47,382 bases of DNA from a virus (Duplodnaviria > Heunggongvirae > Uroviricota > Caudoviricetes), in the IMG/VR virus record IMGVR_UViG_2684623189_000004. One strand, 5' to 3'. Shown here in pieces: positions 26,316 to 28,607 of this stretch. Position numbers and translations under genes: made by a program. Every line of letters starts with the position of its first letter. Position 1 is the stretch's first letter. Under the pieces are notes generated by a model. That model searched no databases and was not told the DNA's origin. It worked only from the letters and a program-made list of their open reading frames with translations.

Positions 26316-26622
26316 ATCATAACGTCCGGTTTCTTCCGTGCCAGAACCGGACTCGCTGGCATGATGAAATATGTGTACCCGGTAACCCCGGTGTGCATCG
26401 TTTTTGATTATTCCCCCACACTTGTGCAGAAGGAGTTCCCCGTCAGGCTACAGTCATAATTAATGCAAGAGTACAGCGACGATACAGCGCACAGAAATAA
26501 ATCAGGTATCCATTGACTTCACAAAGACGGTACATAGCATCGACAGGAGTAATTGCGTAAATTGAACTCTTGGCACACTTTAGCCACCGGCGAATCTTCA
26601 GCGGATTATCCTTGGCCGGTTT

Positions 26623-27087
26623 TTATCTGAGGCATTGCTCTCGAATGTATAGCTGTGCCCCTTCAAGTTGTTTTTGCATTATTATCAGTCGCGCTCTGAG
26701 GGTGAAATAATCCCGTTCAGCGGTGTCTGCCAGTCGGGGGGAGGCTGCATTATCCACGCCGGAGGCGGTGGTGGCTTCACGCACTGACTGACAGACTGCT
26801 TTGATGTGCAACCGACGACGACCAGCGGCAACATCATCACGCAGAGCATCATTTTCAGCTTTCGCATCAGCTAACTCCTTCGTGTATTTTGCATCGAGCG
26901 CAGCAACATCACGCTGACGCATCTGCATGTCAGTAATTGCCGCGTTCGCCAGCTTCAGTTCTCTGACATTTTTGTCGCGCTGGGCTTTGTAGGTAATGGC
27001 GTTATCACGGTAATGATTCAGCCCCAGACTAAGCGCACCACAGGCCACCAGCAGGGCAATGATGACCACGCACAGTACGCGGTTCAT
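26623..27087 (-). CDS. Rz: i-spanin Rz
   Basis: 154 aa; N-terminal TM; from [17 protein letters not shown] onward close to lambda Rz. Confidence 0.9.
26685..26867 (-). CDS. Rz1: o-spanin Rz1 (embedded in +1 frame of Rz)
   Basis: 60 aa; lipobox VVGC; proline-rich [15 protein letters not shown]. Confidence 0.85.
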
Positions 27088-27088
27088 T

Positions 27089-27187
27089 TCACCACCAGCG
27101 TATCTGACCGATGAAATAACCAGAGGCCATAATCACAAACACCAGCCAGATAAGAATGAACTTCCAGGTGGATAATTTTTCAGCCAT
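27089..27187 (-). CDS. hypothetical 32-aa single-TM peptide translationally coupled to Rz
   Basis: ATG preceded by GGGAGA (8-nt spacer); [32 protein letters not shown]; stop TGA 1 nt before Rz ATG; below ORF-track size cutoff. Confidence 0.3.
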
Positions 27188-27262
27188 CACTCGAATCTCC
27201 CGAATCAGTTTGCTAAAATCAAACACACTTTCTCCTTTGACTTTTCCGGAGTCAGGAAACAC

Positions 27263-27300
27263 AAAACCCCGCTTGGTGCCAACAAACGGGGTTTTTACTT
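27263..27300. terminator. hairpin with flanking T/A tracts between R and Rz (bidirectional terminator-like)
   Basis: AAAACCCCG-15 nt-CGGGGTTTTTACTTTTATT. Confidence 0.4.
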
Positions 27301-27385
27301 TTATTCACTTACGTTTCGCCACTTCGCAGGATTTCATGTTATCCGCCCGCGTGGCCATGCCTTATTTTTCAGCAAAATATTCTGC

Positions 27386-27919
27386 TTATCTGTCGATACC
27401 CCAGCACGCCAGCGCGCTCTCCTGGTCACGACGGGATACCTGACCGTAGCAGTTGTTTGAACGAATACGGCAGTCTCTGCCACCGTCCTTAATCCACCAG
27501 CGAATCGCCTCACACGCTCCCCTGCGATCACCTGCATTAATTCGTTTATAAAACGTCGACGGGAAACACTTACCGGGACCAATGTTGTACGGACAGAATG
27601 ACGCGATCCCCGCTTTCTGGGGTTCGCTCAATGGCACTTTGATGTTTTTCTCCACCCATGCCAGCGCCTTATCACGCTCAATGGCGTTGACCTGGTCGCA
27701 TTTTTCCTTCGACAGTTTCATACCGGGAAAAACGGGTTTTCCATCCACCATCGTGGCCCCCCGACAGATGGTCCAGTTGCCGGAACCATCGCGGTATGCC
27801 GTAGTGTGGTTACCCTCTTTTTCATCCAGAAACTGGTCAAGTATCTGAGGAGCTGATGCGCCTGCTCCAATCAGCGCCAGAACTGCAGCTGACAGGCCGT
27901 ATTTGATTTTTGCGTTCAT
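27386..27919 (-). CDS. R: SAR endolysin (T4-lysozyme-like, phage 21 R type)
   Basis: 177 aa; Gly/Ala-rich weakly hydrophobic N-terminus (YGLSAAVLALIGAGASAPQ) then E...D...T catalytic spacing (KEGNHTTAYRDGSGNWT). Confidence 0.85.
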   Translation of the reverse strand: MNAKIKYGLSAAVLALIGAGASAPQILDQFLDEKEGNHTTAYRDGSGNWTICRGATMVDGKPVFPGMKLSKEKCDQVNAIERDKALAWVEKNIKVPLSEPQKAGIASFCPYNIGPGKCFPSTFYKRINAGDRRGACEAIRWWIKDGGRDCRIRSNNCYGQVSRRDQESALACWGIDR

Positions 27920-28024
27920 GGATATTTATCAGGATTTATCGGTTTCTGAACCCTGGATATGTTTATCTGTCCCGGCCTGTTGAATCAGGCGGGGAAAAGG
28001 TAAAGACAATCAAGAGGATTATTT

Positions 28025-28297
28025 ATGGACAATAGCACCATTTCTCTACAGGAGTTGCTCGACTGCATTTCCAGGCTTCGGGATGATGTAAATGCCCTCA
28101 CTGTTGCATTTTCACATCTGGCCTTATCAATTCCCAGGGAGCAAATGCTGCCAACGCTGGCATCCATTCATTTTGAATCACGCAACCCCAAATGGTCCCA
28201 GGAACAACAAAATTCTTTCAAGTGGCTGGCGGCATTGCTGGAAGAAAATTATGCTGGCAAAACTACCATTTCGGCGGAGTCTTCAGGGAACCAGTAA
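28025..28297 (+). CDS. hypothetical protein antisense within the lysis cassette
   Basis: 90 aa; AGAGGA RBS 6 nt upstream of ATG; overlaps 3' end of 28263..28607 on the other strand. Confidence 0.3.
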   Translation: MDNSTISLQELLDCISRLRDDVNALTVAFSHLALSIPREQMLPTLASIHFESRNPKWSQEQQNSFKWLAALLEENYAGKTTISAESSGNQ

Positions 28298-28607
28298 TCC
28301 TTCCCGGTAGCTTTCCTTTGTAGGTTATCCATACATTCTGCGCCTCTAAAATTACGGGGCGCTTTTCCGGCGACTGCTCATCCCCTTCACATAACCCGGC
28401 AGCGACATCCAGGAAGACCTGTCTGATGCTCCTTCTGGCCGCTGCCTCATAAAACTCCAGCGCAGCACCTTCAACACGGTCCAGCGAGATGTCCAGGTCA
28501 AAAATTTCACCGTCAAAGCGTTCTTTGTCCTGTAATGCTAAAGTTACCGTAACTTTATTCTCAAAATTGCGGATCCCTTTCACAATCAGTTCATAGTTTT
28601 GAGTCAT
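28263..28607 (-). CDS. hypothetical protein between holin and endolysin (YdfR/DUF1327-like by position)
   Basis: 114 aa; starts 5 nt after S stop; Qin has ydfR between holin and lysozyme as recalled. Confidence 0.5.
   Translation of the reverse strand: MTQNYELIVKGIRNFENKVTVTLALQDKERFDGEIFDLDISLDRVEGAALEFYEAAARRSIRQVFLDVAAGLCEGDEQSPEKRPVILEAQNVWITYKGKLPGRITGSLKTPPKW

What the first reader, a model, noticed from the sequence alone, without database searches (positions are those of the whole stretch)
27088..27385. Mosaic R-Rz junction with a 32-aa transmembrane peptide coupled to Rz
The endolysin and holin are phage-21/Qin-type, whereas Rz/Rz1 and everything to cos are lambda-like, so a recombination joint lies here. 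The 300-bp gap contains a hairpin with flanking T/A tracts and a 32-aa hydrophobic ORF with a GGGAGA RBS whose stop is 1 nt before the Rz ATG, implying translational coupling. A small membrane peptide in a lysis cassette could modulate lysis timing.
Basis: partly seen in the sequence, partly recalled or inferred. Interest (0 to 1): 0.5.

Follow-up and report, generated by a model that had tools for sequence, protein, structure and literature searches.

The report
Mobile terminator-plus-microprotein cassette in phage late operon
The gap between the prophage's cell-wall-degrading enzyme and its Rz lysis gene holds a real, conserved 45-amino-acid membrane-protein gene that travels between phages together with its own upstream terminator hairpin and a ribosome-site-masking stem, and its function is unknown.

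Summary
The hairpin, the hydrophobic ORF, the GGGAGA site and the 1-nt spacing to the Rz ATG are all present. Two points in the finding need correcting.

- **ORF length.** The conserved frame starts at GTG 27226 behind an AAGGAG site, giving 45 aa (phrog_6632, "hypothetical").
- **Mosaic joint.** The lambda-identical stretch runs only from 27024 to 26695, inside Rz/Rz1. The gap, the ORF and Rz codons 1-21 are collinear with H-19B/Stx phages.

The unit is a cassette of about 220 bp: A-tract, GC hairpin, T-tract, a second stem masking the SD, then the ORF. It recurs in Enterobacterales, Pseudomonas, Azoarcus, Burkholderiaceae and Haemophilus prophages. It sits between endolysin and spanin, or in head, tail and baseplate slots, on the late-gene strand in the late-operon slots examined.

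Both stems covary, with 15 of 23 pairs showing compensatory changes. The ORF is under purifying selection. Codons 3-5 carry an extra nucleotide-level constraint that reads TGnTAAAAT on the opposite strand.

My best reading is a late-expressed membrane microprotein gated by Q antitermination and kept at low translation, and here coupled to Rz. A type I toxin-like arrangement with an antisense RNA remains open. I found no published function.

The parts
27252..27306 (-). Hairpin 1: an intrinsic-terminator-shaped stem-loop (stem 27295-27263) with an upstream A-tract and a downstream T-tract. It has terminator shape on both strands and forms the left edge of the cassette.
   Evidence: Terminator scan. 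Fold -18.9 kcal/mol, z -3.6 on the minus strand and -15.8, z -2.9 on the plus strand. 13 pairs, 8 of them with compensatory changes, 96.9% of cells paired across 25 diverse homologous loci. Present upstream of every homologue examined.
27231..27259 (-). Hairpin 2: UUUCCUGACU...AGUC..AGGAGA. The U/C-rich strand that follows the terminator pairs with the Shine-Dalgarno sequence of the GTG start.
   Evidence: MFE structure. 10 pairs, 7 with compensatory changes, 87.9% paired. Predicted unpaired probability of the SD is 0.20 against 0.34 with a shuffled upstream arm, Wilcoxon p = 0.003.
27089..27226 (-). 45-codon gene (GTG start, TGA stop) for a bitopic membrane microprotein, [55 protein letters not shown] lies at 27238-27231.
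   Evidence: PGAP CDS WP_000459345.1. phrog_6632, 45/45 positions, E 1e-29. Pooled pN/pS is 0.41 in codons 15-45, with saturated pS of 0.77. 84 of 84 close loci are intact. AlphaFold2 gives helix 4-17, a kink, then helix 20-43, pLDDT 82.
27089..27187 (-).
   Evidence: Met14 is ATG in 19 of 19 aligned sequences. Codon 9 is the rare Arg codon CGG or AGG in 13 of 19, creating GGGAG, and codon 12 is CGA in 18 of 19. Some distant relatives lack this Met, so it is optional.
27211..27219 (+). TGcTAAAAT: a candidate extended -10 element on the strand opposite to the gene (reverse complement of codons 3-6). A weak -35 TCGAAT lies at 27191-27196 with a 17-nt spacer. It would start an antisense RNA of about 80 nt (about 27226 to 27306) that covers the SD and start codon and ends at hairpin 1.
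   Evidence: Third positions of codons 3, 4 and 5 never vary, whereas other codons in the gene vary freely. The motif is kept where the amino acids differ: Azoarcus TGATAAAAT, Burkholderiaceae TGCTAGAAT and L136 TGATAAACT. No transcript evidence was found. This is inference only.
26623..27087 (-). Rz i-spanin, with embedded Rz1 at 26685-26867. Its ATG lies 1 nt after the microprotein stop.
   Evidence: Pfam Phage_lysis E 1e-52 and Rz1 E 5e-20. The junction TGGTGGTGAnATG is shared with SPN3UB, C. braakii, L122 and L123.
26695..27024 (.). Lambda-identical patch inside Rz/Rz1. The crossover with the H-19B-type sequence lies at about 27001-27024, which is where the real mosaic joint is.
   Evidence: Sliding identity against lambda and H-19B. 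Megablast.
27386..27919 (-). Upstream neighbour: a Qin/RrrQ-type lysozyme with a hydrophobic N-terminus (SAR-like).
   Evidence: Pfam Phage_lysozyme E 4e-24. PGAP names it rrrQ.
32220..33041 (-). Q antiterminator of the same late operon, about 5 kb upstream. It would let late transcription read through hairpin 1.
   Evidence: Pfam Antiterm PF03589 E 2e-49.

Best explanation
Positions 27089-27306 (minus strand) are one horizontally mobile cassette inserted into the late operon of a Qin/H-19B-like lambdoid prophage. The cassette consists of four elements in order.

1. A strong intrinsic-terminator-shaped hairpin with A- and T-tracts.
2. A second stem whose U/C-rich 5' arm pairs with the Shine-Dalgarno sequence.
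3. A weak GTG start.
4. A 45-codon gene for a conserved single-pass inner-membrane microprotein, with an amphipathic N-terminal helix, a kink, a TM helix and an RWW end.

Shown here: the gene is real and under purifying selection, both stems are conserved by covariation, and the whole unit moves between unrelated slots of phage late operons.

Inferred: there is no sense promoter of its own and the terminator lies in front of the gene. The gene should therefore be silent in the lysogen and transcribed only by Q-modified, terminator-resistant RNA polymerase late in lytic growth. Even then, translation from GTG would be throttled by the masked SD, and the open internal Met14 site may yield a 32-aa isoform. 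In this window, ribosomes finishing the ORF stop 1 nt before the Rz ATG, so Rz translation is probably coupled to it.

Several layers of repression on a tiny hydrophobic protein suggest that it acts on the membrane and is harmful if made early. Its likeliest role is as a late-acting membrane effector or modulator, affecting lysis timing or envelope state. Its actual function is not established.
For: **Gene reality**
- phrog_6632 match over the full length.
- 93 homologues, all 'hypothetical', and 79 clusters at 50% identity among 1.84 billion representatives.
- pS 0.77 against pN 0.31 in codons 15-45.
- 84 of 84 close loci intact, with 7 synonymous versus 1 nonsynonymous variants and leader changes seen only in loops among the listed variants.

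**Start codon**
- GTG or TTG in 22 of 23 distinct enterobacterial/Pseudomonas/Azoarcus modules.
- Synonymous Leu and Ile changes at codons 7-8.

**Leader**
- RNAalifold recovers hairpin 1.
- On a covariance-model alignment, 93.1% of cells are paired, 15 of 23 pairs have compensatory changes, and the covariation score is 0.293 against 0.111 (0 of 500 shuffles reach it). Slid controls reach at most 60% paired.
- SD masking.

**Cassette mobility**
- The same leader plus ORF is found between endolysins of four different families and three spanin types.
- It is also found between baseplate V and W, after tail-tip and tape-measure genes, between tail chaperone and tape measure, and between portal and capsid protease in H. 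influenzae.
- Identity to H-19B jumps to 100% exactly at the hairpin.

**Gating**
- No sigma-70-like site lies on the gene strand in the gap.
- A Q antiterminator is present in the window, in SPN3UB and in SEN34, where the cassette interrupts the baseplate operon.
Against: - No transcription, translation or phenotype data exist for any family member.
- Termination and read-through by Q-modified polymerase are inferred from sequence shape alone.
- SD masking is not universal. In Sodalis the SD sits in a loop, and the Pseudomonas sequences are no better than shuffles.
- In a longer-transcript model the first SD is no less accessible than the internal one.
- Wobble-pair counts do not show on which strand the stems are selected: helix 1 is 96.9% paired in sense versus 94.2% antisense, and helix 2 is 87.9% versus 90.8%.
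- Distant relatives use ATG starts, so a weak start codon is a subfamily trait.
- Q was checked in only three host phages.
Confidence: 0.55

Rival explanations
1. Type I toxin-antitoxin-like or cis-antisense-controlled cassette. An extended -10 promoter (TGcTAAAAT, plus strand 27211-27219) inside codons 3-6 drives an antisense RNA of about 80 nt. That RNA is complementary to the SD, the start codon and the leader, and it ends at hairpin 1, whose opposite-strand reading is also a terminator. The RNA would neutralise leaky sense transcripts of a toxic membrane peptide until late transcription overwhelms it. The geometry matches symE/SymR and IS10 RNA-IN/RNA-OUT (from my own knowledge).
For: - Third positions of codons 3-5 are invariant (GAT/NTT/AGC), while Phe23, Tyr37 and Arg43 codons vary freely.
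- pS in codons 2-13 is half that of the rest of the gene (0.39 versus 0.77).
- The motif survives amino-acid changes and a GC-rich host: Azoarcus TGATAAAAT, Burkholderiaceae TGCTAGAAT with NSSK, and L136 TGATAAACT.
- The A-tract upstream of hairpin 1, which would be the U-tail of an antisense terminator, is conserved even in Azoarcus, where the sense T-tract has decayed.
- The plus strand folds as two stem-loops, -23.2 kcal/mol, z -3.9.
- Helix 2 pairs slightly better on the antisense strand.
- The product is a small hydrophobic peptide with a masked SD.
Against: - The -35 is poor (TCGAAT or TCGCAA, 3 of 6), and the promoter scan did not call the site.
- There is no Rfam family.
- No sRNA is reported here in the UTI89 Hfq data supplement.
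- Haemophilus and other distant members lack a clear motif at the homologous codons.
- AU-rich, unstructured 5' coding ends are also favoured for translation in general.
- There is no sense promoter, unlike classical type I systems.
- Toxicity is untested.
Confidence: 0.25
2. A lysis-cassette-specific small membrane peptide, possibly with a dual-start long and short pair like holin and antiholin, tunes lysis timing or spanin function. It is translationally coupled to Rz and sits at a recombination joint.
For: - In lambdoid prophages it sits immediately upstream of the i-spanin with 1-nt spacing, across Rz-type and DUF2570-type spanins.
- There are two in-frame starts, each with an SD-like site, and Met14 is invariant in the close family.
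- A stem-loop lies at the first start, reminiscent of the lambda S sdi structure (from my own knowledge).
- Unrelated small TM ORFs occupy the same slot in Sakai Sp15 (ECs_5741) and next to the lysozyme in SPN3UB.
Against: - The same cassette lies in head, tail and baseplate clusters of phages whose endolysin and Rz genes overlap directly, as in SEN34.
- It associates with four endolysin families and several holin types.
- Some distant relatives lack Met14.
- The lambda/H-19B joint is inside Rz, not in the gap.
Confidence: 0.15
3. A classical lysogenic-conversion moron, for example a superinfection-exclusion membrane protein like HK97 gp15. It would be expressed from the uninduced prophage and benefit the host.
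For: - It is an accessory gene inserted between conserved late genes at varied slots, including the tail-chaperone to tape-measure slot that HK97 gp15 occupies (the gp15 position is from my own knowledge).
- It is a small inner-membrane protein.
- It is widespread in prophages: at least 870 of 5426 complete E. coli genomes carry this R-to-Rz arrangement.
Against: - No promoter-like site precedes the gene. In SEN34 only about 25 nt separate the V stop from the hairpin.
- The terminator lies upstream of the gene rather than downstream.
- There is no PADLOC match.
Confidence: 0.1
4. No gene at all. The hairpin is simply the endolysin's terminator and the ORF is a chance reading frame.
For: The ORF is short and hydrophobic. 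Many automatic annotations omit it.
Against: - Purifying selection is seen at both long and short evolutionary distances.
- The frame is conserved across orders and classes of Proteobacteria, with saturated synonymous sites.
- The hairpin travels with the ORF, not with endolysins.
Confidence: 0.03

Closest known systems
phrog_6632 / NCBI WP_000459345.1 ('hypothetical protein', 'putative bacteriophage protein' in phage CP-1639)
   Same: The window protein matches the 45-position profile end to end (E 1e-29). PGAP annotates the identical CDS in E. coli ATCC 11775.
   Different: Nothing is recorded about function, leader RNA or context. Many phage records leave the ORF unannotated.
Phage morons (HK97 gp15, lambda bor and lom)
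   Same: A small accessory gene dropped between conserved late genes. It occupies different slots in different phages, and the cassette edges coincide with breaks in identity.
   Different: A moron is defined as its own promoter plus gene plus downstream terminator, expressed in the lysogen (from my own knowledge). Here no sense promoter is detectable and the terminator precedes the gene, which predicts late rather than lysogenic expression.
Type I toxin-antitoxin loci and cis-antisense controls (symE/SymR, hok/sok, ibs/sib, IS10 RNA-IN/RNA-OUT)
   Same: A small hydrophobic peptide, a masked ribosome site, and a candidate antisense promoter just inside the coding region that points at a terminator upstream.
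   Different: There is no sequence similarity to any such family. The antisense RNA and the toxicity are unproven. There is no dedicated toxin promoter, and the element lives inside phage late operons.
Dual-start holin/antiholin genes (lambda S107/S105, phage 21 S71/S68)
   Same: A small membrane protein in a lysis cassette with two in-frame starts and an RNA stem at the first start.
   Different: There is one TM helix and a 13-residue extension instead of 2-3 residues. It occurs outside lysis cassettes. The window already has an S21-type holin (Pfam Phage_holin_2_1, E 4e-32). Hole formation is untested.
fourU-type RNA thermometers and SD-masking leaders
   Same: A run of U(C) residues pairs with AGGAG in a stem of about -7 to -11 kcal/mol directly upstream of the start codon.
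   Different: No temperature dependence was tested. The stem is fused to a terminator hairpin. There is no Rfam match.

Membership tests
phrog_6632 small phage protein family | Full-length match to the family profile | tested here: met
   E 1.2e-29, residues 1-45 on profile positions 1-45 of 45.
Intrinsic (Rho-independent) terminator | GC-rich stem-loop immediately followed by a U-tract | tested here: met
   13-bp stem with 6 GC pairs and a 7-nt loop, followed by the tail GTGTTTCCTG after the stem's closing UUUU. z -3.6. Conserved with compensatory changes.
Intrinsic (Rho-independent) terminator | Stops RNA polymerase in vivo or in vitro, and is read through by Q-modified polymerase | not testable with these tools
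   Only sequence shape is available. Q genes are present in the window, SPN3UB and SEN34.
Moron (Hendrix/Juhala sense) | Its own promoter upstream of the gene | tested here: not met
   No sigma-70-like site on the gene strand in 27088-27385. Only about 10 nt of conserved sequence lie upstream of the hairpin, and about 25 nt separate the preceding gene from the hairpin in SEN34.
Moron (Hendrix/Juhala sense) | Terminator downstream of the gene | tested here: not met
   The next gene starts 1-60 nt after the stop with no hairpin in between. The terminator-shaped hairpin is upstream.
Moron (Hendrix/Juhala sense) | Accessory insertion between genes that are adjacent in related phages | tested here: met
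   R and Rz overlap in lambda, K-12 Qin and SEN34. The cassette is found in at least 7 different slots.
Type I toxin-antitoxin | Small hydrophobic membrane peptide (under about 60 aa) | tested here: met
   45 aa, with a predicted TM helix at residues 20-43.
Type I toxin-antitoxin | Antisense or divergent sRNA antitoxin with its own promoter and terminator | tested here: inconclusive
   TGnTAAnAT is conserved at synonymous sites and across amino-acid changes, and the terminator is bidirectional. However, the -35 is weak, there is no Rfam family and there is no transcript evidence.
Type I toxin-antitoxin | Toxicity of the peptide, relieved by the RNA | not testable with these tools
   Requires expression experiments.
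Holin/antiholin dual-start gene | Two in-frame starts giving a long and a short product | tested here: inconclusive
   GTG1 and ATG14 each have an SD-like site, and Met14 is invariant in 19 of 19 close sequences but absent in some distant ones. No protein data exist.
Holin/antiholin dual-start gene | Resides in, and functions with, the lysis cassette | tested here: not met
   Half of the contexts are head, tail or baseplate clusters.
Known anti-phage defence proteins (PADLOC) | Match to a defence-system profile | tested here: not met
   0 families at E <= 1 for three family members.

The most novel reading that the evidence does not exclude
The cassette is a new, phage-borne type I toxin-like device. 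An antisense RNA of about 80 nt, made from an extended -10 promoter hidden in codons 3-6 and ended by the shared bidirectional terminator, sets a threshold. Below it, a membrane-active 45-aa peptide (and, in lysis cassettes, the coupled spanin) is not made. Above it, Q-antiterminated late transcription swamps the antisense RNA. The cassette would act as a portable timer or safety catch that phages of several proteobacterial orders plug into any late-operon slot.
Probability: 0.2. Interest if true: 0.75.

Novelty: new variant of a known kind. Interest (0 to 1): 0.5.

Why it matters
This R-to-Rz arrangement is present in at least 870 of 5426 complete E. coli genomes and in many Stx-converting phages. 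Relatives are common in P. aeruginosa and H. influenzae prophages. Despite that, the gene is usually unannotated and nothing is published on it.

It shows a gene that carries its own upstream terminator and ribosome-site mask and hops between lysis, head and tail slots of late operons. That differs from the textbook moron and suggests a class of accessory genes designed to be expressed only under antitermination.

If the protein or a cognate antisense RNA affects membrane integrity or spanin expression, it would bear on lysis timing and on toxin release from Stx phages. It would also supply a compact, transferable expression gate.

Tried and rejected
**Database searches that returned nothing**
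- Pfam and NCBIfam gave no match for the microprotein.
- Rfam in permissive E-value mode gave only chance hits: rimP leader at E 0.67 and a CRISPR repeat at E 2.9.
- PADLOC gave nothing.
- A PDB profile search gave nothing meaningful.

**Literature**
- Peptide strings, the accession and the phrog id occur in no paper.
- The peptide is absent from the supplements of the Sakai small-gene Ribo-seq study and of the Enterobacteriaceae microproteome survey.
- The UTI89 Hfq-sRNA supplement has no entry near the locus.
- Reviews and papers on phage sRNAs (PreS, HnrS, Pas, EcOnc) place none of them demonstrably at this site.

**Experimental data sets I could not use**
- K-12 data cannot help, because Qin rrrQ and rzpQ overlap and lack the cassette.
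- Sakai Sp15 lacks the cassette and carries Ant plus ECs_5741 instead. I did not look for copies in Sakai's other prophages, so the EcOnc Hfq-CRAC table could not be applied.

**Analyses that were inconclusive or rejected**
- Comparing the accessibility of the first and the internal SD in a long-transcript model showed no difference.
- Assigning the stems to a strand from G-U versus A-C counts was inconclusive.
- A pairing between codons 2-4 and the leader appears in the window's MFE but is not conserved in SPN3UB-type sequences, so I dropped it.
- A plus-strand promoter-like site at 27104-27133 lies in the variable TM-coding region and is not conserved.
- I rejected a sense promoter overlapping the A-tract (TATAAA in SPN3UB) because it is not conserved and would start at the foot of the terminator.

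Full report
**What is in the interval**

The lysis genes lie on the minus strand.
- The Qin/RrrQ-type lysozyme runs 27919-27386, and Rz runs 27087-26623 with Rz1 embedded. Pfam confirms both.
- The S21-type holin is at 28932-28612. A YdfR/DUF1327 gene sits between holin and lysozyme.
- In the 298-bp gap there is a GC-rich stem-loop at 27295-27263, flanked by an A-tract and a T-tract. The terminator scan reports it as the only terminator-like site in 26500-28100. It folds at -18.9 kcal/mol, z -3.6. Its reverse complement is also terminator-shaped, at -15.8 kcal/mol, z -2.9.

**The gene is longer than reported and is real**

- The frame stays open upstream to GTG 27226, which is preceded by AAAGGAGA.
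- PGAP annotates exactly this 45-codon CDS in E. coli ATCC 11775 (WP_000459345.1). It matches phrog_6632, a 45-position family of unknown function, end to end (E 1e-29).
- Pfam, NCBIfam, PADLOC and PDB give nothing.
- Homologues are all unnamed. They come from Escherichia, Salmonella, Citrobacter, Enterobacter, Klebsiella, Yersinia, Edwardsiella, Pantoea, Brenneria, Sodalis, Pseudomonas, Azoarcus, Burkholderiaceae and Pasteurellaceae.
- The family is small: 79 clusters at 50% identity among 1.84 billion representatives.
- Across 19 diverged sequences, synonymous sites in codons 15-45 are saturated (pS 0.77) while pN is 0.31. In codons 2-13, Lys6, Leu7 and Ile8 are kept through synonymous changes, so the N-terminal extension is translated.
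- In 84 close E. coli loci the 45-codon frame is always intact, with 7 synonymous and 1 nonsynonymous codon variants.
- AlphaFold2 predicts helix 4-17, a kink at 18-19 and helix 20-43 (pLDDT 82). That is an amphipathic cytoplasmic helix followed by one TM helix.
- The start is GTG or TTG in 22 of 23 distinct enterobacterial/Pseudomonas/Azoarcus modules. More distant relatives use ATG.
A 32-aa isoform is therefore possible. Some distant members lack that Met.

**The mosaic claim**

- Sliding identity shows the window is 100% identical to H-19B from about 27270 to 27001.
- It is 100% identical to lambda from 27024 to about 26695, and then closer to H-19B again.
- The lambda-like piece is therefore a 330-bp patch internal to Rz/Rz1. 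The joint lies in Rz codons 22-29, not in the gap.
- Downstream genes (DUF1398/ydfO-like, ynfO) are Qin-like, not lambda-like.
- Relative to lambda, K-12 Qin and SEN34, where R and Rz overlap, the whole gap is an insertion.
- Identity to H-19B is 80-93% upstream of the hairpin and becomes 100% from about 27270, near the hairpin's 3' side.

**The unit is a mobile cassette**

Every homologue whose DNA I could read is preceded by the same architecture. It has about 10 nt of A-rich sequence (AAAGCGAAA), a GC stem-loop, a T-tract, about 35 nt ending in the SD, and then the start codon.

The flanking genes differ completely:
- Endolysins of GH24, GH19, M15 or GH108 type on one side, and Rz, DUF2570+LysC or small overlapping spanins on the other.
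- Baseplate V and W in Rac-SA53, SEN34, Y. similis and Pantoea.
- After tail-tip genes in Y. enterocolitica.
- After the tape measure in Pseudomonas-like contigs.
- Between tail chaperone and tape measure.
- Between portal and ClpP/capsid in H. influenzae, where it is very common.
- Near the terminase among toxin-antitoxin genes in Burkholderiaceae.

In these late-operon slots the gene is on the same strand as the neighbouring late genes. The window holds a single copy.

**RNA structure**

- RNAalifold recovers hairpin 1.
- A covariance model built from 25 leaders finds the window copy at 72 bits.
- On the model alignment, 93.1% of cells pair and 15 of 23 pairs show compensatory changes. The covariation score is 0.293 against 0.111 in shuffles (0 of 500 reach it), and slid controls reach at most 60%. 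That alignment is fitted to the model, so it leans towards the structure.
- Helix 2 (7 of 10 pairs compensatory) pairs the U/C-rich tract after the terminator, plus an inner stem (CCUUG/CAAGG, CCUG/CAGG, CGUUA/UAACG, GACU/AGUC, CAUG/CAUG), with the SD.
- The predicted unpaired probability of the SD is 0.20 against 0.34 with a shuffled 5' arm (p = 0.003). Sodalis and the Pseudomonas group are exceptions.
- G-U versus A-C counts do not settle which strand the stems serve.

**An extra, unexplained constraint**

- Synonymous divergence in codons 2-13 is half that of the rest of the gene (0.39 versus 0.77).
- Codons 3, 4 and 5 never change their third base (GAT, NTT, AGC). Codon 12 is CGA in 18 of 19 sequences.
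- On the opposite strand this reads TTGCTAAAATC, an extended -10 (TGnTAAAAT), with a poor -35 located 17 nt upstream.
- The motif persists where the amino acids differ (Azoarcus NFIK gives TGATAAAAT; L136 gives TGATAAACT) and in a GC-rich Burkholderiaceae host (NSSK gives TGCTAGAAT).
- A transcript from it would start at about the start codon, cover the SD and leader, and end at hairpin 1 after about 80 nt. This geometry resembles symE/SymR or IS10 RNA-OUT (from my own knowledge).
- I found no transcript evidence for or against it.

**How it most likely works**

- No sigma-70-like site precedes the gene on its own strand, and in SEN34 there is no room for one.
- The host phages I checked encode Q antiterminators: the window at 33041-32220, SPN3UB and SEN34. 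In SEN34 the cassette interrupts the essential baseplate operon, so late polymerase must read through the hairpin.
- I therefore infer that the terminator keeps the gene, and whatever lies downstream, silent in the lysogen. Q-modified polymerase would transcribe it late. The masked SD and the GTG start would keep translation low.
- Here, terminating ribosomes would reinitiate at the Rz ATG 1 nt downstream.
- The protein's function is unknown. The layered repression of a tiny TM protein suggests a membrane-active late function.

**Verdict**

The sequence features are real and the small gene is real. However, the gene is 45 codons, it is not lysis-specific, and it does not mark the lambda/21 joint.

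It is an uncharacterised, widespread "terminator-first" microprotein cassette of phage late operons. That makes it a new variant of the moron / small phage membrane protein theme, with an open and testable possibility of antisense control.

Noticed in passing
window 26695-27024: A 330-bp stretch inside Rz/Rz1 is 100% identical to phage lambda, while both flanks are H-19B/Stx-phage-like. This looks like a short gene-conversion-like patch within the spanin genes.
   Followed up: partly
window 28025-28297 (+) and 28263-28607 (-): A 90-aa plus-strand ORF, annotated by PGAP as hypothetical WP_001351274.1, converges on and overlaps the 3' end of the YdfR/DUF1327 gene that sits between holin and endolysin. 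It has no Pfam or PADLOC match.
   Followed up: partly
L125 749-895 (E. coli O157 Sakai Sp15, ECs_5741); L004 2235-2345 (Salmonella phage SPN3UB): Unrelated small hydrophobic ORFs occupy the same neighbourhood in other phages. In Sakai Sp15 a 48-aa TM ORF follows an antirepressor gene and ends just upstream of Rz. In SPN3UB a 36-aa hydrophobic ORF overlaps the lysozyme stop. The endolysin-spanin junction seems to collect small membrane-protein genes.
   Followed up: partly
window 27305-27358 (-): A 17-codon ORF (MATRADNMKSCEVAKRK) lies between the endolysin stop and the hairpin. The nucleotide block GCCACGCGGGCGGATAAC is shared with SPN3UB, but the reading frame is not.
   Followed up: no
L113 and L114 2501-2635 (IMG/VR contigs): A decayed copy of the Pseudomonas-type gene has an in-frame stop and no upstream hairpin, so it is an apparent pseudogene remnant.
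   Followed up: no
L098 569-703, L099 2495-2632; proteins P0074, P0077: A Providencia/Citrobacter/E. coli subgroup keeps the leader and the first ~29 residues but has a different C-terminal half (…IPFIWGISQLIIAIKG). This suggests domain swapping within a 45-aa protein.
   Followed up: no
L134 2501-2647 (Haemophilus influenzae prophage): A distant family member with the same terminator-plus-stem leader sits between the portal and the ClpP-protease/capsid gene. It is listed in 680 blocks of the assembly collection, so it is very common in H. influenzae.
   Followed up: partly
L001 2521-3055 versus window 27386-27919: PGAP marks rrrQ as a frameshifted pseudogene in E. coli ATCC 11775, whereas the window's endolysin ORF is an intact 177 codons. 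The window therefore comes from a closely related strain rather than from that record.
   Followed up: no
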